DNA of 64,000 bases from an uncultured Flavobacteriales bacterium (GCA_937900875.1 CALCGD010000249.1:9977-73976); one strand, 5' to 3'. Numbered from the stretch's first letter, positions 15,757 to 62,186 are shown. Notes: generated from the letters alone by a model not told the origin. Numbers and translations are program-made.

Positions 15757-15876
15757 CAGATAGGTAGTATTTGGTCGATACGATTTTCTGTAAGCACACA
15801 AATATAGACGCGCGAAGCCAATGTTTCAAATAAATTAGAACGTTGTGGCTTTAAAGAAAGGATTGACACGAGGAAA

Positions 15877-33419: not shown

Positions 33420-33984
33420 ATTCCTCTTGACGATTGTATGCTTCATGGTATTTGCTTCGTGTCAAACGGAGTACACACCAAAACCAAGAGGTTTTATTCG
33501 GATTGATTTACCGGAAAAGTCCTATGCCCCGATTGTTACAGATTGCCCTTATTCATTTGAAATACCAACCTACGCATACTATGTTCCAGATAATAGGGCA
33601 GGTTCGGACCCCTGCTGGTTTAATGTAGAATATCCTCAGTTTAAGGCTGTCATACACTTCAGCTATAAACCAATTAGTAATAACCTAAGCGAGTATCTTG
33701 AAGATTCTCGAACACTTACTAATAAACACATAAGCAAGGCGTCAAATATTCTAGAATCGGTAATCATAAAAGACGATTCGCATGTATTTGGCGTGATATA
33801 TAATATAGAAGGAAGCCAAGCGGCATCTCCCATGCAGTTTCATTTAACTGATAGTGTGGATCACTTCTTAAGAGGAGCTCTTTACTTTAATGTAGCTCCG
33901 AATAATGATTCGCTAGCTCCGGTGATAGATTTTTTGAAGGAGGATGCTATGCATCTTATAGAAACGCTCAAATGGAAGTCATAG
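33391..33984 (+). CDS. gldD: gliding motility lipoprotein GldD
   Basis: 197 aa; lipobox MVFASC; immediately downstream of, and overlapping, gldE. Confidence 0.55.
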   Translation: MKSIWMKQSKFLLTIVCFMVFASCQTEYTPKPRGFIRIDLPEKSYAPIVTDCPYSFEIPTYAYYVPDNRAGSDPCWFNVEYPQFKAVIHFSYKPISNNLSEYLEDSRTLTNKHISKASNILESVIIKDDSHVFGVIYNIEGSQAASPMQFHLTDSVDHFLRGALYFNVAPNNDSLAPVIDFLKEDAMHLIETLKWKS

Positions 33985-48245: not shown

Positions 48246-48497
48246 CTACGCTTCGGTAAGTTCAAACTCGAAACTTTCCATAATCTGGTTAGCCAATAAT
48301 TCTTTACAGGCTTTTTCTACCTTTTCTTTAGCCGCAGCTTCGTTTTCGGCCTCAACGTCTAAAGAGATGTGTTTGCCAATTCTCACGTTGCCAACTTCGG
48401 GCAGCCCAAGATTTTTCATACTAGAGCTAACTGCTTTGCCTTGTGGGTCTAAGAGTTCCTTTTTTGGCATTACATCAATCTCGGCTTTAAACTTCAT
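48246..48497 (-). CDS. purS: phosphoribosylformylglycinamidine synthase subunit PurS
   Basis: 83 aa; PurS family fold sequence (KAEIDVMPKKELLDPQGKAV). Confidence 0.85.
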   Translation of the reverse strand: MKFKAEIDVMPKKELLDPQGKAVSSSMKNLGLPEVGNVRIGKHISLDVEAENEAAAKEKVEKACKELLANQIMESFEFELTEA

Positions 48498-49233
48498 TTC
48501 GCTTGCTAACTAGGTTGTTGATTATGGAAATAATGATGTACAAAGATAAGATGATAGGTATTGCAACGGGTCTCAGAATTATCAACAGAACCACGGAAAT
48601 TATCAAGAAAACAAATCGAAATTCATTGCCTTTCCATCCAAACGATTTGAATTTCATTGCTAACAACGGAATATCCGTAACCATTAAGGCCGAAAACCCT
48701 ACAGAAGACCCTATAATAAACCACTTGTCTACAATCACTGTTTCTGGGTTCCACCACAAATGCAAAGGCATAAATTCTATCATTAATGGAATGGATATAA
48801 CCCAAAGAGCAGTGGCCGGAGTTGGCACTCCTCTAAAGCTATCAGTTTGCCTGGTGTCTACATTAAATTTGGCTAATCGTAATGCAGAAAAAACTGGAAT
48901 GGCTAGTGGGAAAATGAGAATGGGATGTTCTATGAAACTGTTTAATCCATTAAGAACGAAGCTAGTAGAAACGCTTAAGTAATGCAGTAAGATTAGTCCA
49001 GGAACAACTCCAAAAGTTACCATGTCTGCAAGAGAATCAAGTTCTGCCCCAATTGGAGAACTCACTTTTAATAATCGCGCTACAAAACCGTCAAAAAAAT
49101 CAAACACGGAAGCCGCAACAACCAAATAAGCTGCAGTTAACGGGTCTCCTGCCAGAACTGAAATAATGGCTAAACATCCGCATACCAGGTTTAGCGTGGT
49201 AATGAAATTTGGAATGTGCTTAATCGGGTTCAT
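48487..49233 (-). CDS. CDP-alcohol phosphatidyltransferase, probably phosphatidylserine synthase
   Basis: 248 aa; DG-x2-AR-x8-G-x3-D-x3-D motif (DFFDGFVARLLKVSSPIGAELDSLAD); size and TM layout typical of Bacteroidota PssA. Confidence 0.65.
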   Translation of the reverse strand: MNPIKHIPNFITTLNLVCGCLAIISVLAGDPLTAAYLVVAASVFDFFDGFVARLLKVSSPIGAELDSLADMVTFGVVPGLILLHYLSVSTSFVLNGLNSFIEHPILIFPLAIPVFSALRLAKFNVDTRQTDSFRGVPTPATALWVISIPLMIEFMPLHLWWNPETVIVDKWFIIGSSVGFSALMVTDIPLLAMKFKSFGWKGNEFRFVFLIISVVLLIILRPVAIPIILSLYIIISIINNLVSKRNEV

Positions 49234-49336: not shown

Positions 49337-50296
49337 ATGAAACCAGAACATAAAGAGTTATATCAAGCACTGGAAGACGCCAAAACCGATTCTATTCGGC
49401 TAACGGCACTCCTTGAGCTTGCATTGGTTTTTAGCAACGAAAACTTTGTGGAAGGATGGAAGTTTTCCAACGAAGCCTTGTTGCTTGCCACAAAACTTCG
49501 TGATGAGCCTGCACGGGCAAAATCATTTGAAGGAATGGCAAGTGCTTCTTGGAAGCTTGCGGAGTACTCGATGAGCCTAGAACATTTTGCAGATGCCTTG
49601 GAAATTTATAGGGCTCAGGACGATGCATATGGCGTTGCTAGGTGCTTTTGTGGTATGGGTATTATTTGCGGCAGCGTGGACGAGTTCATTACCGCTTTAG
49701 AATATTTTGAGGAAGGCTTGGCCGCAAGTAAAGAGGCAGATCGACCGCAACTAACTGCCTCTATTACAGGAAATATTGGGAGCGTATACTTCAATTTTGG
49801 TCAGTACCGACAAGCGATGGATTGTTTTCAGCTGGGGCTTGATTATTACCAAGATTTAAGTCTATTGCCAGGTGCTGCCAACATGCTTTCAGGTATGGCT
49901 GGGGTTCACGTTTTTTTAGCAGAATATCAGTTAGGGCTTGATAAGATAGAGAAGGCGATTGCCATTCATCTCAAGGCCAACCACATTGTGGGTTACGCGG
50001 TGGCTAGAATGAACCGAGGAATTACTTTGCACCGTATGGGAAGAATAACTGAGGCAGAACAAGAATTGTTATCAACCTTAGATTATGCTCGTTCTGTTGA
50101 ATTGAAATCGGCCGAATTTGATATTCTCGCGCATTTGGTTGAATTCTATACTGAACTAGGAAAACCCGATAAGATAGCCTTCTATTCAGAGTTACATGCG
50201 GATGGAATTACAGAAGCAAAAAAGCAGACTCTTAAGATGAAAAACGAGCGACTTAAGCATCGAGCTATTCTTAATTCATACCGAAAAACCAACTAA
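49337..50296 (+). CDS. cytoplasmic tetratricopeptide-repeat protein
   Basis: 319 aa; repeated TPR-like helical pairs; no signal peptide or enzymatic motif. Confidence 0.5.
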   Translation: MKPEHKELYQALEDAKTDSIRLTALLELALVFSNENFVEGWKFSNEALLLATKLRDEPARAKSFEGMASASWKLAEYSMSLEHFADALEIYRAQDDAYGVARCFCGMGIICGSVDEFITALEYFEEGLAASKEADRPQLTASITGNIGSVYFNFGQYRQAMDCFQLGLDYYQDLSLLPGAANMLSGMAGVHVFLAEYQLGLDKIEKAIAIHLKANHIVGYAVARMNRGITLHRMGRITEAEQELLSTLDYARSVELKSAEFDILAHLVEFYTELGKPDKIAFYSELHADGITEAKKQTLKMKNERLKHRAILNSYRKTN

Positions 50297-51451
50297 CTAC
50301 TTGGTGTAAAAGTGCCGTTTGAGACCAAGAATCGGCTTTTCAAAATAATTCCAACTCACATGCGAAATTGGCAGAATAATTAAGAACGCAATTGCTGGTT
50401 TTAAGATTAGAAAAGCCCATACGTTTTCGTCTAATCCAAAGGAGGCTAAAACTCTATTTCCAATTAGAAGCCCTATTTCGTGAAAACAGAACAATCCGTA
50501 GCTAATCACGCCTAGGTATGTCATAACCTTTAGCTTGCCGAACTTGAAAAAGCTATTGTCGCAAAAGTTCTGTTCAAATATGAAGAAAGACAGAATTATG
50601 GCGTAAAACATCTTTTCCAGAATCAGGTTAATTACGCCAGGAAATACCAAGTTGTCGAAGAGCTGATGGTAGAAAATAAGGGACAAGCCAAACGCAAGAT
50701 AAATTCCAATAATCGCATTTCGACTAAGAGATTTGAGCGAATCGTATCCCCAATTTTTATTGAATGAAATGAAGGCAAAAATGGCTCCAAGACAAATATC
50801 TCCAAGTAGAAAAAGTGTATGAAACCAGAGGTTTACATCAGTTTGGTAATAGTAAAATGTGGTAGCTGCAAACAACATCAACAGAATAGCGAATAGCCAT
50901 TTTTCACTCTTTCTGAACACAATTAATAGAAAAGGCCAAAAAATGTAGAATTGCTCTTCTACCGAAACGCTCCACAACACACTAATAATTGGAGAATGTG
51001 TCCATCCATGTTCAATCAGAAAGAAATTACCAACAAATAGAATGAAGTACCACGGGTTGCCAATTTCTTGGTACGGCTCATTTATTAAATCCATAGCAAG
51101 AGGCAAAACAACAAACCCAATAAATAGAACTAGAAAGTAGAGGGGCCAAATTCTTAAAGCTCTTCTGATGTAGTAAAGCCAAGGTTTGAAGGTGCCAGCG
51201 CGTTGCCTTTCCTCTAAAATTACCCATGTATTTATGTAGCTAGAAAGAACAAAAGCAAAGCTAAATCCTGTTTTGCCAAAAATATAAACGTAGTTTTTTA
51301 CCAAACCATATGTGCTAGATTCGGTTACAACACTGCTTTCAGTATCAAGGGCATGTCCAAGAAAAATGAACAAGAATGCAATGAACCGAAGCGCATCAAG
51401 ATTTTTGAAGAAGACTTTTTGTCCCATTGGCGACCCGTAAACACGGTTCAA
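50297..51451 (-). CDS. acyltransferase family 3 (OafA/YrhL-like) membrane protein
   Basis: 384 aa; ten TM helices; N-terminal LDALRFIAFLFIFLGHA motif of acyltransferase_3. Confidence 0.75.
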   Translation of the reverse strand: MNRVYGSPMGQKVFFKNLDALRFIAFLFIFLGHALDTESSVVTESSTYGLVKNYVYIFGKTGFSFAFVLSSYINTWVILEERQRAGTFKPWLYYIRRALRIWPLYFLVLFIGFVVLPLAMDLINEPYQEIGNPWYFILFVGNFFLIEHGWTHSPIISVLWSVSVEEQFYIFWPFLLIVFRKSEKWLFAILLMLFAATTFYYYQTDVNLWFHTLFLLGDICLGAIFAFISFNKNWGYDSLKSLSRNAIIGIYLAFGLSLIFYHQLFDNLVFPGVINLILEKMFYAIILSFFIFEQNFCDNSFFKFGKLKVMTYLGVISYGLFCFHEIGLLIGNRVLASFGLDENVWAFLILKPAIAFLIILPISHVSWNYFEKPILGLKRHFYTK

Positions 51452-51572
51452 TTGCGCAACTTAAGCAGATGCTGATCAAAGCTAAGAACTACCTTCGACA
51501 CAATTTTCAGAAAACGTCTCCGTTCGCGGTGTCGTACGCGGTTAAAAGCTGCATTTTTGATAACTTTAACTC

Positions 51573-52697
51573 TTGCTTTCAAACATGACCAGACTACTTT
51601 TCGTCTTCCTCATACTTTCTGCCTCTTTTATGCTTGGAAATCAGGCATTTGCACAAACACCTAAGTACTCTAATGAATTTTTGGCAATTGGCGTTGGAGC
51701 TCGCGGAATGGGTATGGCCAACAGCATGGTGGCTAGTGTAAATGATGTGACAGGAGGGTATTGGAATCCTGCTGCATTGCCGTTGGCTCAAAGAAAGTGG
51801 CAGGTTTCGCTCATGCACTCAGAGTATTTTGCTGGAATCGCTAAGTACGATTACGCAGCAATTTCAGCACCTATTCTTGATGAACATACTCAAGCGGCTT
51901 TCACTTTTATTCGATTTGGGGTTGATGATATTCCAAATACCACTCAGCTTTTAGATGATGAGGGCAACATAGACTACGATAGAGTTACGGCCTTTACAGC
52001 TGCAGATTATGCTTTTCAGTTTAGTGTTGGTCGAAAAAGCCCCAAAATACCGGGATTGAGATATGGCGGAACTGTTAAAGTCGTGTATCGTCATGTAGGA
52101 AAGTTTGCCAGTTCTTGGGGGTTTGGCTTGGATGGTGGTGTTCAGTATGACCTAGGTAAATGGAAATTCGGTTTAATGGCAAGAGACGTAACTTCTACAT
52201 TCAATGCCTGGAATTTCACTCTAGATGATGAAACCAAAGAAGTTTGGCTTCAAACGGGAAATGAGATTCCTAAAAACTCATTGGAGGTTACGCTTCCAAA
52301 AATGATTTTAGGAGCTGGTCGCAGATTCAATATCTACAAAAAGTTTGGTGTTTATACCGAGTTTAACTTCGATTTTACGTTTGATGGAAAGCGTTCTGTT
52401 CTCATAAAAGGCGACCCAATAAGTATTGAGCCGCATTGGGGAATGGAATTATTTTACTCCGATTTTGTATATGTCCGTTTTGGTGTAACCAACATTCAGG
52501 ACTATACAAATGATGATGGCGATAAAATTTGGACTTGGCAGCCAAATGTTGGTGTAGGAGTCCGAATTAAAGATTTCTATATCGATTATGCTTTAACAGA
52601 TGTAGGAAACCAATCCGTTGCGTTGTTTAGTAATGTATTCTCCCTGCGGGTAGACATACATAAAGACATGTTTAAAAAGAAAGAGAAGATTGAATGA
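51573..52697 (+). CDS. T9SS-associated outer-membrane beta-barrel of the PorV/PorQ (FadL-like) family
   Basis: 374 aa; signal peptide; N-terminal EFLAIGVGARGMGMANSMVA...GGYWNPAAL resembles the FLxIxxxARxxGMG...NPA signature of PorV/PorQ shuttle proteins. The stop overlaps the next start (ATGA at 52694..52697). Confidence 0.5.
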   Translation: MLSNMTRLLFVFLILSASFMLGNQAFAQTPKYSNEFLAIGVGARGMGMANSMVASVNDVTGGYWNPAALPLAQRKWQVSLMHSEYFAGIAKYDYAAISAPILDEHTQAAFTFIRFGVDDIPNTTQLLDDEGNIDYDRVTAFTAADYAFQFSVGRKSPKIPGLRYGGTVKVVYRHVGKFASSWGFGLDGGVQYDLGKWKFGLMARDVTSTFNAWNFTLDDETKEVWLQTGNEIPKNSLEVTLPKMILGAGRRFNIYKKFGVYTEFNFDFTFDGKRSVLIKGDPISIEPHWGMELFYSDFVYVRFGVTNIQDYTNDDGDKIWTWQPNVGVGVRIKDFYIDYALTDVGNQSVALFSNVFSLRVDIHKDMFKKKEKIE

Positions 52698-55600
52698 GGA
52701 AACTTTTACTGATAGCTTTCTTGCTTCAGTCTGTTTTTGCCTTTTCGCAGCCGTATGGTAACGAATGGGTGAATGCCTCTCAACCTCATTTCAAATTTAA
52801 CATACACCAAGAGGGAGTTTATCGCATTAGCTATCAGGTTTTATCCGATGCTTTGGCCGCGCAAGGCCTAAACCTCAATTCCATTGATCCTCGAAATATT
52901 CAAATTTTTGCCCGTGGCGAAGAACAATATCTGTATGTAGGAGGTGAGGCTGATGGGAATTTTGATACCAACGATTTTATTGAATTCTATGCTCGCAAAA
53001 ATGATGGGGTATTAGATACGGAGGTCTATTTCGATAATCCGCTCAATAACGCCAACCCGTACCATAGTCTAATAAACGACACAATTCGGTACTTCCTTAC
53101 TTGGAACAACTCTATTGCCAATGCGAGAATGACGTTGGAATCGGATGTCAATTTTACTGGATACACCCAGTCTTCGTACATATTAAGAGATGAAATAGAC
53201 GAGTTGCACGACACCTATTTTACTGGTCAAAACTACGTGGTAACAGGCAGTCCAAGCCCGATTTATTCTGGTGGAGAAGGTTTTTACGGTTACTATTTTG
53301 ATGCAGGCTGGACTGATAGTTTTTGGAATTTAGGAACTGTGTTTAGAGATGCTTCTGGCCCAGATGCAGAGGTGGAAATTGGAATAGTTGGCGCCTCTTT
53401 CGATGATAAAAACCTTCATATTCAAGGTCCATCTATCAGTTTTGATACGGTAATGGAAAAATACAACGGCTATCGGTTCAATTTCAATGTGCCAACGGCC
53501 TCTCTCGGAGTAAATGCGTCCAACTTCACATTCTCTATGAACAACCCTGTTACTAACGGTTCGTATCGTGCAATTGTTGGTTTTGTAAGAGTACGATACC
53601 CACAAACTCCAAATGTTGGAAACGGACAAACAGCAAAGTTTATCGTTGACGATAACCCAAATTATCCAAGTCAAGCCAAGAGTTATGTTCAGTTGGCTGG
53701 GTATACGCAAGGAACTCCACGACTTTACGACTTAACCAATCATAAACGGATTTCAGTTGGTGGTTCGCCAGGTAGTTACCGCTTTCTAATACCAGACAAC
53801 GGCAGTTTAAAACACTGCTATTTAACCAACGAATCAGGAATTGCATCAAACGCTATTTCTGTTCTTACACCTGCTGGATCAAATGGCTCTGTTTTCTTCA
53901 CGGATTTCGATGCTTTGGACGCAAATACAGACTATTTCGCCATCGGAAATGCTTCTATGTTTGCGGAGGTTCAGCAATACGCGGCTTATCGAAATGTATC
54001 GGGTTATAATGCGATTGCTATAGATGCTGATGAACTCTATAACCAGTTTGGGTGGGGAATAAATAAGCACCCGCTGGCTATTCGAAAATTTGCCAATTGG
54101 GCGTTAGGAAACCTCACCGCCCCTTCGCATATCTTCCTCATAGGCAAATCGGTTTCGTCTCTTTCTGCTCGAAATAATCCCGCTCTTTTTGCAGAGATTA
54201 TGGTGCCAAGTTTTGGTCATCCGCCTAGCGATAATATGCTCACATCATATCTCGGAACGGGAACTTATTTAGAAGAAACAGGAATTCCTGTTGGGAGATT
54301 GGCCGCAAAAAGTGGTGATGACGTGACCGAGTATCTAGATAAGATAATGGAGTACGAAGCGTTGCCGAACAATCTTTGGATGAAACGAATCCTGCACTTT
54401 TCGGGTGGTGGTACGCAAAACGAAGTTGCCCAAATTCGTTCGTTTATGGATTCGTACAAAACCATAATTGAAGACACGCTTTACGGTGCCAGTGTTCAAA
54501 CTTTTCAGAAAACGAGTTCAGAGCCTTTTCAAATTACACAGGTCGATTCTATTACAGATTTGGTTGAGACCGGTGTTCAGTTGATTAATTTCTTTGGACA
54601 TGGGTCAGCCGTTGGTTTCGATGTCAGTATAGATCATCCTTCTCTGTTCAATAATCAAAACGGTAAGTATCCGTTTATGATGGCGAATTCATGTTTTGCA
54701 GGAGATATCCACCAACCCTCAAGTGTTCCAACTTCAATTTCTGAAAACTGGGTACTCGAGCCACAAGGTGGAGCGCTTGGATTTTTAGCTACAATTGGTC
54801 CAGGTAGCAGGTTTTACCTCAATAGTTATTGCACTAATTTCTACCACAGTGTTAGTCATTTAGAGTACTATAACACCATTGGCTGGCAGATTAAGAAAGC
54901 CATTAGAGAAAATGCGCAGCCGTTTAATGACATTACCAAGTTGCACAATCTGGAGTATACGCTCCATGGCGATCCAGCATTAAACATCACCAACAGGGAG
55001 AAACCAGATTTAATGGTTAATCAGCCTGCTATTTGGTTTGAACCGGAAGAGATTACCACCGAGATGGCTGATTTTGAAATGTTTGTGAAGATTACCAATT
55101 TGGGTGCTGCTTTCACAGATTCTTTTGTAGTAGAGATAACTCGACAACTTCCAACCGGACAAATTGATACCACTATCAGTATTATTCATCCGCCTGTTTA
55201 TTACCTAGATACTATGAGTGTATTTATCCCAATCGATTTGATTGATGGATTGGGTATTAATACCATTTGCATTTCGCTCGATAATACGCAAATCATAGAT
55301 GAACTTTCGGAAGTGAACAATGATGTTTGTATTGACGTGAACGTCTTATCTCCAGATATTGTGCCTATTTGGCCATATAAGTTCGCTGTAATTCCAGACC
55401 AAGGTCCAACCTTGAAATGTTCTACAGGTAGCCCTTTTGCACCAGAAAAAACGTATAGGATTGAACTGGATACAACCGATTTATTCAATAGTCCGTTAAT
55501 GCAGTTTACCACCATCACCCAGGGTGGCGGTGTTGTTAATTGGACACCAGGCTTACTTCAAAACATGCCAGATAGTACAGTCTATTTTTGGCGAGCAAGC

Positions 55601-57736
55601 GTTGATTCTGCCACCTACGGTTTTTACAAATGGAGAGAAACTTCCTTTCAGTACATCGTAGATAAGTATGGTTGGGGACAAGCACACTACTTCCAATACA
55701 AGGAAGACGATCACATTAATATGGTTTACAACCGTCCTGAATTAGACTGGGATTTTGTGCAAACCATGAAGCAGTTTAAGATTAACAATTTTGGTAATCC
55801 TACTACGCTGGCTGAGGCGGAAGCCATCAATTTCTTTATAGATAATGGTAGAGAGGAATACCTCGGTTGCACGGGAGGAAACGTGTTTACACCGCAGCTG
55901 CTTACCGCGGTAATGGATGGGTGTACCCTCAAGCCTTGGGAAACTCCCGGAAACGACCCAGAAACGGGTGAGTTTATTCCTGGAGGAGGAGCGCAAGGGC
56001 AGTTAGAACCTTGTAGAACCCGTCCTGAAAAATGGTACCAATGGGCTGCTACCAGCGGTACATCAATGAATAACATGGTTACGTTTTTAGGAAACACAGT
56101 TCCTGATAGCAGCTATATAGGAATAGCCACTTGGCTTAACGTAAACCTTGCTGGGCTACCCGCCAACGTGCTTCAGGTTTTTCACGATTTAGGTGCTACA
56201 GCCATCGATACACTCTCTGGTGTTCCGTATGCGTTTTTCGCGCAAAAAGGAAATCCAGCTTCGGCCATAGAAGTTTTTGGAACCGACATCAACGACTATA
56301 TAAGCCTTACGGCTGATATGACTGGATGTTGGAACAACGGAACAATCACCTCTAAGTACATTGGACCTACATCGCAGTGGAATTCGTTGCATGTTCGTTC
56401 TCACCCCAAGGAAAACCCAACATTAGATAGCATTGGCATCAATGTAATTGGGGTACGCCCGAGTGGTGTAGAAGAGGTGGTTATGACTGGAATTAATGGT
56501 AATAGCACCGATATTCTTGATTTATATAACTCTATTGATGCTGCAGAATTTCCTCGATTAAAACTCAATGCCTACTGTAGTGATGATAGTTCTGCTAGCA
56601 CTCCGCCACAAATGGATAGGTGGCAGGTGTTGTTTGATGGAGTGCCGGAAGCTGCACTAAATCCGCATATAGGCTACCATTTTGAAAGTGATACTATTAA
56701 TGATGGTGAGCTTCTGAAATTCACCGTGGCAATTGAAAATATCAGCGATTTCGATATGGATAGTTTGCTGGTGCATTACTGGATACAGGATGGGCAAGGC
56801 AATCGAAATTACATTCCGTATCCGCGACAGGCGCCTTTGTTGGCTGGAGATATTTTACTCGATACCGTCATAACTGATCCGCTCGATTTCTTAGGAGGAA
56901 ATGTGTTTTGGGTGGAAGTTAACCCGAGAAGACCGGATCAAACTTCGGGCTACGATCAGCTAGAGCAATATCACTTCAATAATCTAGCAAACGTTCAGTT
57001 TTCTGTTTCTGGAGATGATGTAAACCCAATAATGGATGTGACCTTTGATGGTATTCACATTCTTGATGGTGATATCGTTTCTGCCAAACCATTTATTGTG
57101 ATTGAGTTGGATGATGAGAGTCAATTCAGATTGCTAAACGACACCGCAGATTTCCAAGTGTTCTTAAAACAACCGGAATCAGAAGTACTACAAAGGGTTT
57201 GGTTTGAGGGCTTCACTAACATGCAGTTTTATCCAGGTGAAGAACCTACAAACAAGGCACGAATTGAATGGCCAGCTGAGTTTGCTGCCGATGGTGTCTA
57301 CGAACTTTGGGTACAGGGCCACGACAAATCGAACAATGCCTCAGGAGATCAATACTACCGAATAAGTTTCGAGGTAATTAACGAAGCCACCATCAGTAAT
57401 GTGCTCAATTATCCAAACCCGTTCTCAACGTCCACCCATTTCGTATTTACAATTACCGGTTCAGAGCAGCCAGATTATTTCAAAATACAGGTAATGACCA
57501 TCACCGGCAAGGTGGTCAGAGAAATTACCATGGACGAACTGGGCCACATGAATATTGGCCGAAATGTGACCCAATATGCGTGGGATGGAAAAGACACCTA
57601 CGGAGACCAGCTCGCCAATGGCGTTTATCTTTACAGAATGGTCGCCAAATTAGATGGCGCATACATCGAGCATCGCGATAGCGGAGCCGACAGATGGATT
57701 GAAAGTGGTTTTGGCAAGATGATGTTGATTCGCTAA
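52694..57736 (+). CDS. gingipain-like C25 cysteine peptidase with a T9SS type-A C-terminal domain (PorU-like or paralogue)
   Basis: 1680 aa; signal peptide; C25 catalytic dyad context INFFGHGSAVGFD ... 27 aa ... MANSCFAGD; C-terminal type-A sorting domain with YPNPF and GVYLY motifs. Confidence 0.6.
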   Translation: MRKLLLIAFLLQSVFAFSQPYGNEWVNASQPHFKFNIHQEGVYRISYQVLSDALAAQGLNLNSIDPRNIQIFARGEEQYLYVGGEADGNFDTNDFIEFYARKNDGVLDTEVYFDNPLNNANPYHSLINDTIRYFLTWNNSIANARMTLESDVNFTGYTQSSYILRDEIDELHDTYFTGQNYVVTGSPSPIYSGGEGFYGYYFDAGWTDSFWNLGTVFRDASGPDAEVEIGIVGASFDDKNLHIQGPSISFDTVMEKYNGYRFNFNVPTASLGVNASNFTFSMNNPVTNGSYRAIVGFVRVRYPQTPNVGNGQTAKFIVDDNPNYPSQAKSYVQLAGYTQGTPRLYDLTNHKRISVGGSPGSYRFLIPDNGSLKHCYLTNESGIASNAISVLTPAGSNGSVFFTDFDALDANTDYFAIGNASMFAEVQQYAAYRNVSGYNAIAIDADELYNQFGWGINKHPLAIRKFANWALGNLTAPSHIFLIGKSVSSLSARNNPALFAEIMVPSFGHPPSDNMLTSYLGTGTYLEETGIPVGRLAAKSGDDVTEYLDKIMEYEALPNNLWMKRILHFSGGGTQNEVAQIRSFMDSYKTIIEDTLYGASVQTFQKTSSEPFQITQVDSITDLVETGVQLINFFGHGSAVGFDVSIDHPSLFNNQNGKYPFMMANSCFAGDIHQPSSVPTSISENWVLEPQGGALGFLATIGPGSRFYLNSYCTNFYHSVSHLEYYNTIGWQIKKAIRENAQPFNDITKLHNLEYTLHGDPALNITNREKPDLMVNQPAIWFEPEEITTEMADFEMFVKITNLGAAFTDSFVVEITRQLPTGQIDTTISIIHPPVYYLDTMSVFIPIDLIDGLGINTICISLDNTQIIDELSEVNNDVCIDVNVLSPDIVPIWPYKFAVIPDQGPTLKCSTGSPFAPEKTYRIELDTTDLFNSPLMQFTTITQGGGVVNWTPGLLQNMPDSTVYFWRASVDSATYGFYKWRETSFQYIVDKYGWGQAHYFQYKEDDHINMVYNRPELDWDFVQTMKQFKINNFGNPTTLAEAEAINFFIDNGREEYLGCTGGNVFTPQLLTAVMDGCTLKPWETPGNDPETGEFIPGGGAQGQLEPCRTRPEKWYQWAATSGTSMNNMVTFLGNTVPDSSYIGIATWLNVNLAGLPANVLQVFHDLGATAIDTLSGVPYAFFAQKGNPASAIEVFGTDINDYISLTADMTGCWNNGTITSKYIGPTSQWNSLHVRSHPKENPTLDSIGINVIGVRPSGVEEVVMTGINGNSTDILDLYNSIDAAEFPRLKLNAYCSDDSSASTPPQMDRWQVLFDGVPEAALNPHIGYHFESDTINDGELLKFTVAIENISDFDMDSLLVHYWIQDGQGNRNYIPYPRQAPLLAGDILLDTVITDPLDFLGGNVFWVEVNPRRPDQTSGYDQLEQYHFNNLANVQFSVSGDDVNPIMDVTFDGIHILDGDIVSAKPFIVIELDDESQFRLLNDTADFQVFLKQPESEVLQRVWFEGFTNMQFYPGEEPTNKARIEWPAEFAADGVYELWVQGHDKSNNASGDQYYRISFEVINEATISNVLNYPNPFSTSTHFVFTITGSEQPDYFKIQVMTITGKVVREITMDELGHMNIGRNVTQYAWDGKDTYGDQLANGVYLYRMVAKLDGAYIEHRDSGADRWIESGFGKMMLIR

Positions 57737-57810: not shown

Positions 57811-59211
57811 ATGGCAAAGTATGATGTAACAATAATTGGGTCTGGCCCAGGAGGATACGTAGCAGCAATCAGATGCGCTCAATTAGGAATGAAGGTGGCT
57901 CTTATCGAAAAGTATCCTACGCTTGGTGGTACTTGCTTAAACGTAGGGTGTATTCCGTCAAAAGCGTTACTCGATTCTTCGCATCATTTTCACACTGCAG
58001 AACATTCATTTAAAGAGCACGGAATTGATATTTCAGCACCAAAAGTGAACATCAAACAGATGATTAACCGAAAGGGTGACGTGGTAAAATCCAATGTTGA
58101 TGGTATTGCCTTCTTAATGAAGAAGAACAAGGTTGATGTGTATAAAGGGTTCGGCAGTTTTGAAAACAAAAATAAAATTATCGTTACCCAAAACGGTAAA
58201 ACCGAAACGCTCGATACGGATAAAGTAATCATTGCTACAGGTTCAAAACCATCGTCTTTACCCTTTATTACAATTGATAAAAAGCGCGTAATTACTTCTA
58301 CCGAAGCCTTGAATTTAACCGAAGTTCCAAAGCATTTAATTGTTGTGGGTGGTGGAGTTATTGGTCTTGAGTTAGGTTCTGTTTATGCTCGATTGGGCGC
58401 ACAGGTTTCCGTTGTAGAATACATGGACGGAATTATTCCAACTATGGATAAAACCTTGGGTAAAGAATTACTGAAGGTGTTGAAGAAAGAGGGCATTAAA
58501 TTCTATCTCAGCCATAAAGTAAAAGCAGTTTCGGCAAAAGGTAAAACCGTTACACTTAAGGCGGACGATAAGAAAGGAGCAGAAGTCACTTTAGAAGGAG
58601 ATTACTGCTTGGTTGCTGTTGGTAGAAGAGCTTATACCGATGGCCTTGGCTTAGATAAAGTGGGTGTTCCAACGGACGATAGAGGCAGGGTGGAAGTGGA
58701 TGCAAATCTTCAAACCAAAGTGCCCGGAGTGTATGCTATTGGCGATGTAATTAAAGGAGCTATGCTAGCCCACAAGGCGGAGGAAGAAGGAATATTTGTG
58801 GCAGAAGTTATGGCTGGCCAAAAACCTCATGTAGATTATAATTTGATTCCTGGAGTGGTTTATACTTGGCCAGAAGTTGCAGCTGTTGGTCAAACCGAAG
58901 AGCAGTTGAAAGATGCTGGTGTAGAGTATAAAGTTGGTTCTTTTCCCATGCGTGCTTTAGGTCGTTCTCGCGCCAGCATGGATTTAGATGGGTTGGTGAA
59001 GGTGTTAGCTGATGCCAAAACGGACGAAATTCTAGGAGTTCACATGATTGGAGCACGTGCGGCAGATATGATTGCAGAAGCTGTTGTAGCTATGGAATTC
59101 AGAGCTTCTGCGGAGGATGTTTCTAGAATGTCTCATGCACACCCAACATACACAGAAGCCATTAAAGAAGCCTGTCTAGCAGCTACAGATAACCGTCCAA
59201 TTCATATGTAA
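57811..59211 (+). CDS. lpdA: dihydrolipoyl dehydrogenase
   Basis: 466 aa; FAD motif GSGPGGY; redox-active disulfide GGTCLNVGCIPSK; NAD motif GGGVIGLE; C-terminal dimerisation HAHPT. Confidence 0.9.
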   Translation: MAKYDVTIIGSGPGGYVAAIRCAQLGMKVALIEKYPTLGGTCLNVGCIPSKALLDSSHHFHTAEHSFKEHGIDISAPKVNIKQMINRKGDVVKSNVDGIAFLMKKNKVDVYKGFGSFENKNKIIVTQNGKTETLDTDKVIIATGSKPSSLPFITIDKKRVITSTEALNLTEVPKHLIVVGGGVIGLELGSVYARLGAQVSVVEYMDGIIPTMDKTLGKELLKVLKKEGIKFYLSHKVKAVSAKGKTVTLKADDKKGAEVTLEGDYCLVAVGRRAYTDGLGLDKVGVPTDDRGRVEVDANLQTKVPGVYAIGDVIKGAMLAHKAEEEGIFVAEVMAGQKPHVDYNLIPGVVYTWPEVAAVGQTEEQLKDAGVEYKVGSFPMRALGRSRASMDLDGLVKVLADAKTDEILGVHMIGARAADMIAEAVVAMEFRASAEDVSRMSHAHPTYTEAIKEACLAATDNRPIHM

Positions 59212-59241
59212 ACAATTGGCAACTAAAGCTGTTTCAAATCC

Positions 59242-60252
59242 ATGAATCCAGAAATCGGGGTATTGTTAATGAATGTTGGTACACCTGACTCTCCGGAGGT
59301 TGGTGATGTACGCAAGTATCTTTCGCAGTTCCTCAACGACCCTCGTGTAATTGATATTCCGTGGGTTGCTAGAAAGATTTTGGTTAATGCAATAATTGTC
59401 CCTTTCCGAGCGCCAAAGTCTGCTAAAATATACAAGCAAATGTGGACTGATGAAGGGTCTCCATTATTGATACACAGCGAGAACTTTAAAAACGGATTAC
59501 AAGAAAGTTTAGGAGAAAAGTATCAAGTGGAAATAGCCATGAGGTACCAAAGCCCTTCTGTAGAAGAGGGGTTAGAAAAGATACGCAAGAACAATCCCAA
59601 GAAAATAATTGTGGTGCCTATGTATCCGCAGTATGCTTCTTCATCTACTGGCACGTGCATGGAGGATGTAATGCGCGTTGCCTCAAAATGGTGGGCAATA
59701 CCTGAAATGGTTTTTGTGAATCAGTTTTATGATTTACCGGGTTATATAGATGGATTTGTAAAGAAGGCAAAGGAGTTTGATATAGATTCTTTCGACCACG
59801 TTTTATTCAGTTATCATGGATTGCCTGTTCGGCACTTAGATAAGATTTATGATGAAGGTCTTTGCTCAGATCGTGATTGTGAGAATGAGTTAACTAACGA
59901 GAATCACTTTTGCTACAAGGCAACTTGCTACGCAACTACCAGGAGCATTGCCAAAGGTTTAGGGTTATCTGAAGACAGATATTCTGTTGGCTTTCAATCT
60001 CGTCTTGATGATAAATGGATAAAGCCTTATTCTGATAAAGTAGTTGCCGAAAAGGCCAAGTCAGGAGTCAAGAAAATGCTCGTTTTCTCGCCAGCTTTTG
60101 TTGCTGATTGTCTAGAAACGCTTATTGAAATTGGACACGAATACCAAGAGATATTCGAGGTGAATGGCGGAGAGAAAATTCAGCTTGTCCCGAGTTTGAA
60201 TAGCGACCCTGATTGGGTTGAAGCATTTGCAAATCACATTAGAACAAAATAA
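59242..60252 (+). CDS. hemH: ferrochelatase
   Basis: 336 aa; VLLMNVGTPD N-terminal motif and the conserved His/Glu regions of ferrochelatase. Confidence 0.85.
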   Translation: MNPEIGVLLMNVGTPDSPEVGDVRKYLSQFLNDPRVIDIPWVARKILVNAIIVPFRAPKSAKIYKQMWTDEGSPLLIHSENFKNGLQESLGEKYQVEIAMRYQSPSVEEGLEKIRKNNPKKIIVVPMYPQYASSSTGTCMEDVMRVASKWWAIPEMVFVNQFYDLPGYIDGFVKKAKEFDIDSFDHVLFSYHGLPVRHLDKIYDEGLCSDRDCENELTNENHFCYKATCYATTRSIAKGLGLSEDRYSVGFQSRLDDKWIKPYSDKVVAEKAKSGVKKMLVFSPAFVADCLETLIEIGHEYQEIFEVNGGEKIQLVPSLNSDPDWVEAFANHIRTK

Positions 60253-60299: not shown

Positions 60300-62006
60300 T
60301 TATTTCAGCATTACACGTTTGCTGTAGTTACGGATTCCATTAGATAGGTTGATTATGTAGATACCTCTTGCGAGGTCATTTACATCAAGATTTACTTTAT
60401 TCAATCCGTCATATCCTACGCCACCAAAATCAAGAACTCTACGTCCGCTTGCATCATATAGCATGATGGTGTAATCTTCATTTTCTCTAGATGTGAACTC
60501 AACTACAAGCTCGCTATGGTCAACGTCATAAGCGTTAACAAAATTGAATTCGCTGTCATCAGATCCACATGTTACAGCAAGTACATCTGAGTATTCAAAC
60601 TTACCTGCGAAATCAACATTTTTCAATCGGTAGTAAGAAGTTCCTCCATAAGGTAATTCATCTACAACCGTATAAGAGATTGGCTGGTTGCTGTTTCCAG
60701 CACCTTCAATCACATCAACAATTTCCCAATCAGTACCATTATTGCTTCTTTCTACAGTAAAGAAATCGTTGTTTGTTTCTGTCCAAGTAGTCCAGCTCAG
60801 GTCAATTTTTCCGTTAGCGCACTCGCCAACAAATCGAACCAATTCAATTGGTAGAGGATCACTGTTATCAACCAATGTCCACACTGGGTACATGTCTTCA
60901 TAGCTAGTCGCTGGATCCTGACCAATTTGTATTGAAACTGTGTTTGCTGCTGTATTGGTAATAACTGAAGGGACTCCATAAATCCAGTCACCCCATTTGT
61001 CAAGGTCATGATTGTAACGTTGAGCTATTAGGTTGGCTTCCGTAATGTGGTTTATCGGACCGGCAATTTCAGCATCTGCGTACTTAAAAACGTATTCGGA
61101 TCTTGGATTTACTCCATAACCACCATTGTCCTCGCCAATGTTTCCTTCATCAATAATCCAAAATCTATCTGTAACAAACCTGTGAGCGGCTTGTATGTAA
61201 TCATCCGTCAAATGATTAACAGTGGTTGGAAGGTCAGACCAAGCAGCGCCAGGGTAAGGACCTGCAGTAATATTTGGGTATGTTCCTTCATCAAACGTGT
61301 TGTACTCATCTGTTCCGTACGTGGCAAATGTTTTGTACGCGGAAGATGGTGTTCCAGCAGTTGTAATGTTGTAACCAAATGCCAAGTTAGCAGGAGCTGG
61401 GGCATCTGTACCAAAAGGTATAGTGTAGTTACCAGTAAGAGTTCCAATGTCCCACTTAAGTATTCCGTATCCACCACTAGATGGAGCGCTTTCAGAAATA
61501 ATAAATCCCCCAAAGTTGGAAATAGCCCCAGGTCCTAAAGCAGCATTTTCCAAAGTAAGTGTTTGGGAGTTTAGACGAACGCTTTGAAACGACAGAGAAA
61601 GTTGTCCGTAGACATCGGTATCGACCCCATTTAACGTCTTTTTTCCAGAACCTGCTACTCGTAAATTGTAAAAATTTGTTTTTACCGTTCCAGTGATATC
61701 GGCCGCTGCTCCGTCAAGCTCAACCATTCCGCCAGTGGTTGCTATTGGAGTTGCTCCAAAGACACCATTCGCGTCATTATTCTCCCATTCACCTTCAACT
61801 TGGATAATTCCATTATTCGTGACCTGACCTGAAGTTTCATTCTTAAATCCCCCCCCGTCAATGTTCAAATATGTGCCTGTAGTAACATTAATCTTGGCGC
61901 CATTATTTACCATTCCCTGACCAAAAGATGCAGAATATGCTGCAATCGAAATGGCAACAACGAGTGAGGTAATCTTGGAGGATGAGTATATAGATTTCAT
62001 GGTCAT
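60300..62006 (-). CDS. secreted Gly-rich beta-helix-like protein with a T9SS type-A C-terminal domain
   Basis: Start taken at MTMKSIY (signal peptide SLVVAISIAAYSASFGQ); Gly/Thr/Asn-rich repeats; a penultimate module ELVRFVGECANGKIDLSWTT...YYRLKNVDFAGKFEYSDV common in T9SS cargo; C-terminal GIYIINL...KRVMLK. Confidence 0.65.
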   Translation of the reverse strand: MTMKSIYSSSKITSLVVAISIAAYSASFGQGMVNNGAKINVTTGTYLNIDGGGFKNETSGQVTNNGIIQVEGEWENNDANGVFGATPIATTGGMVELDGAAADITGTVKTNFYNLRVAGSGKKTLNGVDTDVYGQLSLSFQSVRLNSQTLTLENAALGPGAISNFGGFIISESAPSSGGYGILKWDIGTLTGNYTIPFGTDAPAPANLAFGYNITTAGTPSSAYKTFATYGTDEYNTFDEGTYPNITAGPYPGAAWSDLPTTVNHLTDDYIQAAHRFVTDRFWIIDEGNIGEDNGGYGVNPRSEYVFKYADAEIAGPINHITEANLIAQRYNHDLDKWGDWIYGVPSVITNTAANTVSIQIGQDPATSYEDMYPVWTLVDNSDPLPIELVRFVGECANGKIDLSWTTWTETNNDFFTVERSNNGTDWEIVDVIEGAGNSNQPISYTVVDELPYGGTSYYRLKNVDFAGKFEYSDVLAVTCGSDDSEFNFVNAYDVDHSELVVEFTSRENEDYTIMLYDASGRRVLDFGGVGYDGLNKVNLDVNDLARGIYIINLSNGIRNYSKRVMLK

Positions 62007-62186
62007 CAAATTATTTGTTTCAACCCAAATAGATTGAACCGAACGTAAAGCTATTATTTTACACCTGAAAGTTTTAGTAAAAAAGCATTGCCATTTAAAT
62101 TTCAACTTTGCAGGAATCTTACATTTCGTGGAATTAATACGATTTTACAACGCCTACGTTGTGTCGTTTATCGATAAATATGCCGC

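What the first reader, a model, noticed from the sequence alone, without database searches (positions are those of the whole stretch)
51573..57736. Translationally coupled PorV-family beta-barrel and a 1680-aa gingipain-like C25 peptidase with a type-A CTD, in an order reversed relative to canonical porU-porV
**Seen in sequence.**
- The 374-aa barrel carries the FLxIxxxARxxGMG...WNPA N-terminal signature I associate with PorV/PorQ T9SS shuttle proteins.
- Its stop overlaps (ATGA) the start of a very large secreted protein with an intact C25 catalytic dyad (GHG ... 27 aa ... NSCFAG) and a type-A T9SS sorting domain.

**Established knowledge.** The T9SS sortase PorU is a C25-family peptidase, and porU is normally encoded immediately upstream of porV.

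**Inference.** The barrel comes first here and the peptidase is about 400 aa longer than typical PorU. This is therefore one of two things:
- the attachment-complex pair in an unusual arrangement, or
- a paralogous shuttle-plus-peptidase module that could process a distinct cargo subset.

Either would be informative for T9SS biology.
Basis: partly seen in the sequence, partly recalled or inferred. Interest (0 to 1): 0.62.

Follow-up and report, generated by a model that had tools for sequence, protein, structure and literature searches.

The report
PorV2–PorU2 paralogous T9SS barrel–peptidase operon
These two overlapping genes are a typical example of an already catalogued but experimentally unstudied gene pair (PorV2/PorU2), a second, paralogous copy of the outer-membrane barrel and surface cysteine peptidase that Bacteroidota use to process proteins exported by their type IX secretion system.

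Summary
A 370/374-aa barrel gene (51585 or 51573 to 52697) overlaps by ATGA a 1680-aa C25 peptidase gene (52694-57736) with GHG(635-637) and NSCFAG(665-670).

NCBIfam already has curated models for exactly this pair:
- The barrel scores 493 bits on NF052325 "putative type IX sorting system protein PorV2" (cutoff 325).
- The peptidase scores 682 bits on NF052324 "putative T9SS sortase PorU2" (cutoff 450).
- Both fail the canonical PorV, PorQ and PorU models.

The "unusual canonical pair" reading is not.

In a scan of 185,579 species genomes, 55-56 of the 80 best PorV2 loci carry PorU2 immediately downstream on the same strand. 25 have the same 4-nt overlap, and PorU2 lengths are 1592-1747 aa. 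The "reversed" order and the large size are therefore family norms. His636 and Cys667 are invariant.

The C-terminal domain is the best conserved part of PorU2, but it is below threshold for type A. 17 loci keep PorV2 without an adjacent PorU2.

I found no paper on this pair. Co-occurrence with canonical porU/porV could not be tested. It is ordinary as an instance, and moderately interesting as an uncharacterised family.

The parts
51585..52697 (+). porV2: PorV/PorQ-superfamily outer-membrane beta-barrel, 370 aa from ATG 51585 (alternative TTG start 51573, 374 aa). Signal peptide aa 1-23, mature N-terminus Gln.
   Evidence: NF052325 PorV2 493 bits against cutoff 325. The AF2 model has pLDDT 80.7, and its best PDB fold matches are F. 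johnsoniae PorV 8GL6_F and 6H3I_F. The profile hits only PorV in the PDB.
52694..52697 (+). ATGA stop/start overlap of porV2 and porU2, which allows translational coupling
   Evidence: Read directly from the sequence. The same 4-nt overlap occurs in 25 of 56 homologous loci.
52694..57736 (+). porU2: 1680-aa secreted PorU-like C25 cysteine peptidase
   Evidence: NF052324 PorU2 682 bits against cutoff 450. Canonical PorU NF033707 gives only 200.8 bits against 420. Full-length homologues are 1592-1747 aa.
52694..52747 (+). Sec signal peptide of PorU2 (MRKLLLIAFLLQSVFAFS), followed by the invariant Gln19
   Evidence: Sequence. Q19 is invariant in 25 and in 42 homologues. The cleavage site is inferred, not predicted by a tool.
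52703..55321 (+). PorU-like N-terminal region plus catalytic domain (aa 4-876), the region covered by the PorU2 model. Aa 27-767 also align to positions 2-734 of the canonical PorU model.
53942..54985 (+). Peptidase C25 domain (aa 417-764)
   Evidence: Pfam PF01364, 175 bits. The profile aligns aa 411-766 to P. gingivalis PorU 6ZA2 residues 405-788, E 1e-17.
54599..54601 (+). Codon of the putative catalytic His636 (in GHG)
   Evidence: Invariant in 42 PorU2 sequences. Aligned to the His of AGHGG in PorU 6ZA2. Codon checked.
54692..54694 (+). Codon of the putative catalytic Cys667 (in NSCFAG)
   Evidence: Invariant in 42 PorU2 sequences. Aligned to the Cys of ITATCDF in PorU 6ZA2. Codon checked.
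55007..57370 (+). About 790-aa array of beta-sandwich (Ig/FN3/CARDB-like) domains with one alpha/beta insert (aa ~772-1559). No second catalytic domain was recognised.
   Evidence: AF2 model of aa 760-1680, pLDDT 85.1. Foldseek gives generic multi-Ig hits plus PorU 6ZA2. There are conserved blocks at aa 921-1000 and 1441-1480.
57371..57733 (+). C-terminal sorting-type Ig-like domain (aa 1560-1680), with NYPNPF, GVYLYR and an invariant terminal G-K-M. It is the most conserved part of PorU2.
   Evidence: FlgD_ig 29.2 bits (above 27). Por_Secre_tail 19.4 and CHU_C 19.8 are both below 27. TIGR04183 18.3 is below 23, and the PorZ C-terminus matches at E 4e-5. Weak match to the PorU CTD. Mean identity to the window sequence about 0.7 across 42 sequences.
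48246..49233 (-). purS and pssA: the conserved divergent upstream neighbours of porV2. This is context, not shown to be functionally linked.
   Evidence: pssA TIGR00473 107.1 bits. pssA lies upstream of porV2 in 60 of 83 loci and purS in 49.
49337..51451 (.). Two lineage-specific genes inserted between pssA and porV2: a TPR protein (49337-50296, +) and an Acyl_transf_3 membrane acyltransferase (50297-51451, -)
   Evidence: An Acyl_transf_3 homologue lies upstream of porV2 in 8 of 83 loci.

Best explanation
The locus is a two-gene operon encoding members of the curated PorV2 and PorU2 families. These form an ancient, vertically inherited paralogue of the T9SS PorV(/PorQ) barrel and the PorU C25 peptidase/sortase.

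Shown here:
- Family membership of both proteins.
- A FadL/PorV-type barrel fold for PorV2.
- An intact, invariant His/Cys pair in a PorU-like catalytic region.
- A conserved barrel-first gene order with frequent 4-nt overlap.
- A highly conserved C-terminal Ig-like domain on PorU2.

Inferred mechanism:
1. Both proteins are exported by Sec. Each has a signal peptide followed by Gln.
2. PorU2 crosses the outer membrane through the T9SS by means of its C-terminal domain.
3. As in PorU-PorV and PorZ-PorQ, that domain is not cleaved off. It docks onto the unusually conserved surface loops of its cognate barrel, PorV2.
4. This tethers a Cys/His peptidase/transpeptidase, carried on a long stalk of beta-sandwich domains, at the cell surface.
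5. There it most likely removes C-terminal signals from a subset of secreted proteins, and possibly re-ligates them to an acceptor. It would act alongside the canonical PorU/PorV/PorQ/PorZ attachment complex rather than replace it.
For: Family membership:
- NF052325 493 bits against 325, and NF052324 682 bits against 450. The canonical PorU, PorV and PorQ models are all far below their cutoffs.

Fold and nearest solved relatives:
- The PorV2 model's best PDB matches are PorV chains 8GL6_F and 6H3I_F (TM 0.64 and 0.55). FadL/TodX come next and BamG is weaker.
- The only PDB sequence relatives are PorV for the barrel and PorU 6ZA2 for the peptidase.

Conservation of the pair:
- 55-56 of the 80 best PorV2 loci from different species have PorU2 directly downstream on the same strand. 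25 have a 4-nt overlap, and 41 complete PorU2 proteins are 1592-1747 aa.
- H636 and C667 are invariant, and the C-terminal domain is the most conserved segment.
- The PorV2 long loops are as conserved as its strands: 0.74-0.84 against 0.56-0.87.

C-terminal domain:
- Together with its tail it is about 115 aa. [quoted passage not shown] It also matches the PorZ C-terminus.
- PorU and PorZ CTDs are retained and bind PorV and PorQ (PMC10202324). Genetic linkage of a cargo and a PorP/SprF-type barrel marks cognate pairs in F. johnsoniae (PMC12618676).

Evidence that this organism has a T9SS:
- The window encodes a T9SS/gliding organism: GldB, GldD, GldE, one type A cargo and one type B cargo.
- A canonical PorQ (347 bits against 220) sits beside a PorV2-PorU2 pair in L041.
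Against: - There is no experimental evidence for this family. No paper was found under these names or as a PorU/PorV paralogue.
- The C-terminal domain does not reach the curated threshold of either the type A or the type B CTD model, so T9SS dependence is itself inferred.
- 17 loci with at least 3 kb of downstream sequence keep a 54-61% identical PorV2 without an adjacent PorU2. PorV2 may therefore have a role that does not need PorU2.
- Co-occurrence with canonical PorU and PorV in the same genome was not tested.
- No complex prediction was possible, so the PorU2-CTD/PorV2 contact is an analogy.
Confidence: 0.6

Rival explanations
1. PorV2 has a primary, PorU2-independent outer-membrane role. 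It could be a shuttle or anchor for other secreted proteins, or a FadL-like channel for a hydrophobic or lipid molecule. PorU2 would then be only one lineage-restricted client that happens to be encoded next to it.
For: - 17 of about 72 informative loci have PorV2 at 54-61% identity but no adjacent PorU2. Instead lnt, a glutaminyl cyclase (PF05096) or ligA follows.
- PorV2 has many more database relatives than PorU2: 7968 against 950 hits within the capped candidate sets.
- PorV2 is strongly syntenic with pssA, in 60 of 83 loci, whether or not PorU2 is present.
- The fold belongs to the FadL superfamily.
Against: - Where PorU2 exists it is always immediately downstream, often translationally coupled.
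- PorU2 could lie elsewhere in the 17 genomes. This was not testable.
- The nearest solved fold is PorV, not the transport-type FadL channels.
- purS, which has no plausible functional link, is as syntenic as pssA. The synteny may therefore simply be a frozen gene order.
Confidence: 0.2
2. The pair is this organism's only PorU/PorV, that is, the canonical attachment-complex sortase and shuttle, merely diverged and with inverted gene order.
For: - No canonical porU or porV was seen in the 64-kb window.
- The PorU-like N-terminal and catalytic regions are shared.
Against: - Both proteins fall far below the curated cutoffs of the canonical equivalog models, and far above those of the separate PorU2/PorV2 models.
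- NCBI curators named them as second copies.
- A canonical PorQ coexists with the pair in L041.
- The pair occurs in Bacteroidales-labelled MAGs, an order in which canonical PorU/PorV are the rule (own knowledge).
- 64 kb is about 2% of a genome, so absence from the window says little.
Confidence: 0.08
3. PorU2 is an ordinary T9SS-secreted C25 (gingipain-like) protease used for nutrition or virulence, and the neighbouring barrel is functionally unrelated.
For: - C25 domain with an intact His/Cys pair.
- C-terminal sorting-like domain.
- Deposited records call it 'C25 family cysteine peptidase' or hypothetical.
Against: - Homology to PorU extends over aa 27-767, well beyond the C25 domain.
- It is single-copy and syntenic among housekeeping genes across orders.
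- Adjacency to PorV2 is fixed and often overlapping.
- The C-terminal domain is the best conserved part, about 70% identity across orders. This is atypical of cleaved cargo CTDs, which lack significant sequence similarity (PMC11285876).
Confidence: 0.07

Closest known systems
NCBIfam NF052324 'putative type IX secretion system sortase PorU2' and NF052325 'putative type IX sorting system protein PorV2' (model name PorVQ2)
   Same: Both window proteins match end to end and far above the curated cutoffs (682 against 450, 493 against 325). The gene order, length and coupling are the family norm.
   Different: Nothing distinguishes the window's pair from the family. The only lineage-specific feature is the two genes (TPR, Acyl_transf_3) inserted between pssA and porV2.
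PorU (P. gingivalis PG0026, PDB 6ZA2; NF033707), the T9SS C-terminal signal peptidase/sortase
   Same: - PorU-like N-terminal region plus a C25 domain with aligned His and Cys.
- A long C-terminal Ig-like domain of the size class of the retained PorU and PorZ CTDs.
- Encoded next to a PorV-type barrel.
   Different: - Scores 200.8 bits against a cutoff of 420.
- About 520 aa longer, because of a much larger array of beta-sandwich domains after the catalytic domain.
- The gene lies downstream of the barrel gene rather than upstream. The canonical order is porU then porV (PMC8564354).
PorV (F. johnsoniae Fjoh_1555, PDB 6H3I/8GL6 chain F; NF033710), the type A cargo shuttle
   Same: - Best structural match (TM 0.64).
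- Shared N-terminal FL.I..AR..G...WNPA signature.
- Similar size.
   Different: - 15-16% identity, and 28.4 bits against a cutoff of 250.
- Sequence similarity is detectable only over the first ~100 residues.
- PorV2 is far more conserved across orders, 53-61% identity.
PorQ-PorZ (a barrel holding the retained CTD of a surface protein in the attachment complex)
   Same: - PorQ is the second-best specific model for the barrel (60.7 bits).
- The PorU2 C-terminus matches the PorZ C-terminus at E 4e-5.
- It shares the architecture in which a barrel anchors one dedicated partner through a non-cleaved CTD (PMC10202324).
   Different: - Below the PorQ cutoff of 220.
- A true PorQ coexists with PorV2 in L041.
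- The partner here is a peptidase, not a PorZ-type beta-propeller protein.
PorP/SprF-type barrels with genetically linked type B cargo (F. johnsoniae)
   Same: A cognate shuttle or anchor barrel is encoded next to its dedicated secreted partner (PMC12618676).
   Different: - It is a different barrel family. No PorP/SprF model hit was listed.
- The PorU2 C-terminal domain does not reach the type B threshold (CHU_C 19.8 against 27).
BamG/BamH of the Bacteroidota BAM complex (PMC12578637)
   Same: A FadL-fold 14-stranded barrel that holds a large surface protein through its extracellular loops. It is widely conserved in the phylum.
   Different: - There was no sequence match to BamG chains in the PDB profile search.
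- Fold matches are weaker (TM 0.42-0.47).
- BamH is a lipoprotein scaffold, not a C25 peptidase.

Membership tests
NCBIfam NF052325 PorV2 | Whole-protein HMM score at or above the curated cutoff (325 bits), end-to-end match | tested here: met
   493 bits, aa 11-362 matched to model positions 4-353 of 354
NCBIfam NF052325 PorV2 | PorV/PorQ-superfamily outer-membrane beta-barrel fold with a signal peptide | tested here: met
   AF2 model pLDDT 80.7, barrel of antiparallel strands with an N-terminal plug. The top PDB fold hits are PorV chains.
NCBIfam NF052324 PorU2 | HMM score at or above the curated cutoff (450 bits) over the N-terminal ~880 aa | tested here: met
   682.4 bits, aa 4-876 matched to positions 2-879 of 879
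NCBIfam NF052324 PorU2 | C25 catalytic His/Cys pair present | tested here: met
   H636 and C667 are invariant in 42 sequences and aligned to the His and Cys of PorU 6ZA2
PorU2/PorV2 pair | Adjacent co-oriented genes, porV2 first | tested here: met
   ATGA overlap in the window. The same order is seen in all 55-56 loci that have both genes.
Canonical PorU (NF033707, T9SS sortase) | HMM score at or above 420 bits | tested here: not met
   200.8 bits
Canonical PorU (NF033707, T9SS sortase) | Cleaves cargo CTDs and transpeptidates cargo onto A-LPS | not testable with these tools
   Needs mutants and mass spectrometry
Canonical PorU (NF033707, T9SS sortase) | Gene immediately upstream of porV | tested here: not met
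   The barrel gene comes first here. The canonical order is described in PMC8564354.
Canonical PorV (NF033710) | HMM score at or above 250 bits | tested here: not met
   28.4 bits, N-terminal 80 aa only. Pfam PorV 15.9 against 27.
PorQ (NF033711) | HMM score at or above 220 bits, and the only such barrel in the genome besides PorV | tested here: not met
   60.7 bits. A true PorQ (347 bits) coexists with PorV2 in L041.
PorV/PorQ family (NF033709, subfamily model) | HMM score at or above 90 bits | tested here: not met
   81.1 bits, just below the cutoff though full length (aa 35-361). Superfamily relatedness is supported by the fold.
T9SS type A CTD cargo (TIGR04183 / PF18962) | C-terminal domain scoring at or above the curated cutoff (23 and 27 bits) | tested here: not met
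   18.3 bits and 19.4 bits. The N-terminal half of the motif (YPNPF) matches. FlgD_ig 29.2 passes. The window's own cargo at 60300-62105 passes with 33.2 and 28.9 bits.
T9SS type B CTD cargo (TIGR04131 / PF13585) | C-terminal domain scoring at or above the cutoff | tested here: not met
   CHU_C 19.8 against 27
FadL/BamG family | Sequence match to FadL/Toluene_X or BamG, with the best fold match to them | tested here: not met
   No Pfam or PDB sequence hit. FadL/TodX and BamG rank below PorV in the fold search.

The most novel reading that the evidence does not exclude
PorU2/PorV2 is a second, mechanistically distinct sortase-type attachment system. PorU2 would ligate a set of secreted proteins to an acceptor other than A-LPS, for instance an amine-bearing membrane lipid.

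Several hints point this way:
- porV2 has a deeply conserved position beside pssA (phosphatidylserine synthase) and, downstream, lnt.
- PorU itself uses a seryl amine as acceptor (PMC10202324).
- Archaeosortase-dependent lipid anchoring needs PssA (own knowledge).

None of this is tested, and purS is equally syntenic, so the gene order may carry no functional meaning.
Probability: 0.05. Interest if true: 0.85.

Novelty: already known. Interest (0 to 1): 0.38.

Why it matters
As an instance it is routine. NCBI's annotation pipeline would name both genes from existing models, and a 99% identical PorU2 is already public.

As a family it is more interesting. PorU2/PorV2 is widespread in non-model Bacteroidota (Crocinitomicaceae, Vicingaceae, Cryomorphaceae and many Bacteroidales-labelled MAGs) and strongly conserved, yet I found no experimental or descriptive paper on it.

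If it is a second surface peptidase/sortase module, it would bear on two questions. One is how T9SS cargo is sorted between release and different modes of surface attachment outside P. gingivalis. The other is phylogenies that treat every PorU- or PorV-like hit as an orthologue.

Tried and rejected
1. BamG/BamH hypothesis, raised by PMC12578637 (a FadL-fold barrel holding a surface protein, highly conserved). Rejected: the PorV2 profile hits only PorV in the PDB, and BamG chains rank below PorV and FadL in the fold search.
2. PorV2 as the lineage's PorQ orthologue. Rejected: 60.7 bits against 220, and a true PorQ sits next to a PorV2-PorU2 pair in L041.
3. Literature under the names PorU2 and PorV2. 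All five hits were false, being superscript citations or unrelated terms. Searches for a PorU/PorV paralogue, '-like', or carrier taxa found nothing specific.
4. Single-sequence search of PorU2 against the PDB found nothing. Only the family profile reached PorU 6ZA2.
5. Fold search of the C-terminal 920 aa gave only generic multi-Ig matches (alpha-2-macroglobulin, complement C5) plus PorU. There was no functional clue.
6. Paralogues in the window or in the ±10 kb flanks of 83 loci. There was none except PorQ in L041.
7. Co-occurrence with canonical porU/porV in the same genome. Look-ups of chromosome-sized carriers return only ±10 kb, so this stayed untested.
8. Cluster-member names added nothing beyond 'C25 family cysteine peptidase' or hypothetical.
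9. The representative-library search showed a graded family: 206 clusters at E ≤ 1e-30 and 2779 at E ≤ 1e-3. There was no sharp score gap within the best 150.

Full report
**Observation**

- The barrel gene runs from 51573 (TTG) or, more likely, 51585 (ATG) to 52697. The ATG gives 370 aa, which is the length and N-terminus of the homologues.
- The peptidase gene runs from 52694 to 57736 and encodes 1680 aa.
- The barrel stop and the peptidase start overlap as ATGA.
- GHG lies at aa 635-637 and NSCFAG at aa 665-670, 27 residues apart, inside a Pfam C25 domain (aa 417-764, 175 bits).
- The barrel carries the NEFLAIGVGARGMGMA...YWNPAAL signature.
- Both proteins begin with a hydrophobic signal sequence followed by Gln. 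Gln19 of the peptidase is invariant in the family.
- One element is weaker than stated. The C-terminal domain scores 18.3 bits on the type A model TIGR04183 (cutoff 23). Scanned alone, it scores 19.4 on Pfam Por_Secre_tail, 19.8 on the type B model CHU_C and 29.2 on FlgD_ig, each with a cutoff of 27. A sorting-type Ig-like domain is therefore present, but 'type A' is below threshold.

**What the genes are**

NCBIfam release 20 has dedicated curated models for exactly this pair.

| Protein | Model | Score (bits) | Cutoff (bits) |
|---|---|---|---|
| Barrel | NF052325, 'putative type IX sorting system protein PorV2' | 493 | 325 |
| Barrel | PorQ | 60.7 | 220 |
| Barrel | PorV | 28.4 | 250 |
| Barrel | PorV/PorQ subfamily model | 81.1 | 90 |
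| Peptidase | NF052324, 'putative type IX secretion system sortase PorU2' (aa 4-876) | 682 | 450 |
| Peptidase | NF033707, canonical PorU (aa 27-767 on positions 2-734 of 1095) | 200.8 | 420 |

The pair is therefore not the canonical attachment-complex pair. It is a member of a separately curated paralogous family.

In the PDB, a PorV2 family profile hits only F. johnsoniae PorV (6H3I_F, E 1.5e-4, N-terminal ~100 aa). A PorU2 family profile hits only P. gingivalis PorU (6ZA2, E 1e-17). That alignment places His636 and Cys667 on the His of AGHGG and the Cys of ITATCDF, and adds a weak match of the two C-terminal domains. [quoted passage not shown]

**Comparative genomics**

A PorV2 alignment (A1) was scanned against one genome for each of 185,579 species. 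At least 585 loci were confirmed, and the 80 best were kept. These come from Flavobacteriales-type MAGs (Crocinitomicaceae, Vicingaceae, Cryomorphaceae, Fluviicola, Crocinitomix), many Bacteroidales-labelled MAGs and Marinifilum.
- PorV2 identity to the window's protein is 53-87%. This is unusually high for an outer-membrane protein across orders.
- In 55-56 of the 80 loci a PorU2 homologue (35-79% identity, usually covering aa 1-1680) starts immediately downstream on the same strand.
- 25 of those loci have the same 4-nt overlap.
- The 41 complete PorU2 proteins are 1592-1747 aa.
- The 'reversed' order, the coupling and the size are therefore properties of the family. The canonical order is porU then porV (PMC8564354).
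- 17 loci with at least 3 kb of downstream sequence have PorV2 but no adjacent PorU2. There it is followed by lnt (L010, L017, L049), by a glutaminyl cyclase (PF05096; nine Bacteroidales-type loci) or by ligA.
- The wider gene order is deeply conserved: purS and pssA on the opposite strand, then porV2, porU2 where present, lnt, lpdA and hemH. pssA lies upstream in 60 of 83 loci (L083).
- The window follows this order, with a TPR gene and an Acyl_transf_3 gene inserted between pssA and porV2.
- HMM searches of all ORFs in the 83 loci and the window found no further PorU- or PorV-like gene, with one exception. That exception is a canonical PorQ (347 bits against 220) beside the pair in L041, a Crocinitomix MAG. 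PorV2 is therefore additional to PorQ.

**Conservation and structure**

Across 42 full-length PorU2 proteins, His636 and Cys667 are invariant. The best conserved segment is the C-terminal 120 aa, at about 70% identity to the window's sequence. It includes NYPNPF and an invariant terminal G-K-M.

Cleaved cargo CTDs show no significant sequence similarity and span 67-88 residues. The retained CTDs of PorZ and PorU span 96 and 108 residues (PMC11285876). The PorU2 domain plus its tail is about 115 residues, and it matches the PorZ C-terminus at E 4e-5.

PorV2 model (pLDDT 80.7):
- It is a barrel with an N-terminal plug.
- Its best PDB matches are the PorV chains of the SprA translocon structures (8GL6_F at TM 0.64, 6H3I_F at TM 0.55). 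FadL/TodX channels come next, and BamG is weaker.
- Its long loops are as conserved as its strands. For an outer-membrane protein this points to a conserved partner.

PorU2 model, aa 760-1680 (pLDDT 85.1):
- It is a chain of beta-sandwich domains with one alpha/beta insert and a terminal sandwich.
- Fold hits are generic multi-Ig proteins and PorU.
- No second enzymatic domain was recognised.

**Context in the window**

The window is ordinary chromosome of a gliding, T9SS-bearing Bacteroidota.
- It carries the mraZ-to-murC division and cell-wall cluster.
- It carries gldB, and gldE with gldD.
- It carries lptB and tatC.
- It carries one type B cargo (13852-15801, minus strand) and one type A cargo (60300-62105, minus strand).
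- No canonical porU or porV lies in these 64 kb, but that is only a small fraction of a genome.

**How it most likely works**

Shown here: family membership, the PorV-like fold, the intact PorU-like catalytic region, the fixed operon structure, and the strongly conserved C-terminal domain and barrel loops.

Inferred by analogy:
1. The analogy is with PorU-PorV and PorZ-PorQ, whose CTDs are retained and bound to their barrels (PMC10202324). It also rests on cognate cargo-barrel gene pairs in F. johnsoniae (PMC12618676).
2. PorU2 is exported by Sec and then by the T9SS.
3. It keeps its C-terminal domain and docks through it on PorV2.
4. It works at the surface as a Cys/His peptidase or transpeptidase on some secreted proteins, in parallel with the canonical attachment complex.

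I put the family assignment at about 0.95, the anchoring model at about 0.5, and a sortase-type role on a distinct cargo subset at about 0.3-0.4.

**Rivals**
1. PorV2 has a PorU2-independent role, and PorU2 is only one client. This is supported by the 17 PorV2-only loci and by the larger number of PorV2 relatives. It is not excluded.
2. The pair is the sole, diverged PorU/PorV. This is unlikely given the model scores and the coexisting PorQ, but it is not formally excluded, because canonical PorU/PorV could not be searched for in a carrier genome.
3. PorU2 is an ordinary secreted protease. This is unlikely, because homology to PorU extends well beyond the C25 domain, the gene is housekeeping-like in its synteny, and its CTD is the most conserved part.
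4. A BamG/BamH-like pair. Rejected.

**Novelty**

The family is already curated and named by NCBI. A 99% identical PorU2 is already in public data (P0121). Deposited records call these proteins hypothetical, 'PorV/PorQ family protein' or 'C25 family cysteine peptidase'.

I found no paper that describes or tests the pair. The instance is therefore already known, while the family's function is open.

One published T9SS phylogeny reports PorV and other nodes of Fluviicola, Owenweeksia and Draconibacterium falling out of place and reads this as horizontal transfer (PMC7323717). Confusion with paralogues such as PorV2 is an untested alternative.

**Limits**
- The key test, whether canonical PorU/PorV coexist with PorU2/PorV2 in the same genomes, could not be run with the remaining caps.
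- No complex prediction was available.
- T9SS dependence, CTD retention and substrate range are all inferred.

Noticed in passing
window 48246-49233 (-) and 57811-60252 (+); loci L001-L083: Gene order is deeply conserved: purS and pssA on the opposite strand, then porV2, porU2 where present, lnt, lpdA and hemH. pssA lies directly upstream of porV2 in 60 of 83 loci spanning Flavobacteriales- and Bacteroidales-type genomes, even where porU2 is missing. Whether this reflects a functional lipid link or a frozen gene order is unknown.
   Followed up: partly
L020, L024, L025, L031, L044, L047, L052, L053, L070 (about 1.5-2 kb downstream of the porV2 start): In Bacteroidales-type loci that lack an adjacent porU2, porV2 is followed by a 366-370-aa glutamine cyclotransferase (PF05096, 305-311 bits) with an N-terminal Ig domain. 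This kind of enzyme makes the pyroglutamate N-termini typical of secreted Bacteroidota proteins. Both PorV2 and PorU2 have Gln after their signal peptides.
   Followed up: partly
L041:550-1596 (-): A canonical PorQ (NF033711, 347 bits against 220) is encoded about 1.4 kb upstream of a porV2-porU2 pair in a Crocinitomix MAG. This is the only direct evidence obtained that the pair coexists with a canonical attachment-complex component.
   Followed up: yes
window 3752-4297 (-): A 180-aa ORF matches only the C-terminal third of MurD (TIGR01087 positions 287-440, 134.6 bits). It lies directly downstream of a full-length murD (4317-5651), inside the division and cell-wall cluster. It looks like a partial duplicate.
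   Followed up: no
window 13852-15801 (-) and 60300-62105 (-): Two T9SS cargo genes. One is a 649-aa PKD-domain protein with a type B CTD (TIGR04131 45.7 bits, CHU_C 71 bits). The other is a 601-aa protein with a type A CTD (TIGR04183 33.2 bits, Por_Secre_tail 28.9 bits).
   Followed up: partly
window 16214-17227 (-), 32049-33984 (+): The gliding-motility genes gldB, gldE and gldD are present, so the source is a gliding-type, T9SS-bearing Bacteroidota. The nearest public relatives are uncultured 'Flavobacteriales bacterium' MAGs.
   Followed up: partly
window 50297-51451 (-); L002, L014-L016, L042, L057, L081: An Acyl_transf_3 family membrane acyltransferase sits just upstream of porV2 in the window and in 8 of 83 loci. 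L081 additionally has glycosyltransferases and lpxD nearby. A link to surface glycan or lipid modification is possible but untested.
   Followed up: no
window 51561-51568 (+): TAACTTTA lies 17 nt upstream of the ATG at 51585. It resembles the Bacteroidota -7 promoter element TAnnTTTG (own knowledge). If real, it would exclude the TTG start at 51573. The sigma-70 scan tool does not cover this promoter type.
   Followed up: no
literature: PMC7323717: A T9SS phylogeny reports PorV and other component nodes of Fluviicola taffensis, Owenweeksia hongkongensis and Draconibacterium orientale falling outside their expected clades, and reads this as horizontal transfer. Picking up PorV2-type paralogues instead of orthologues is an untested alternative explanation.
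   Followed up: no
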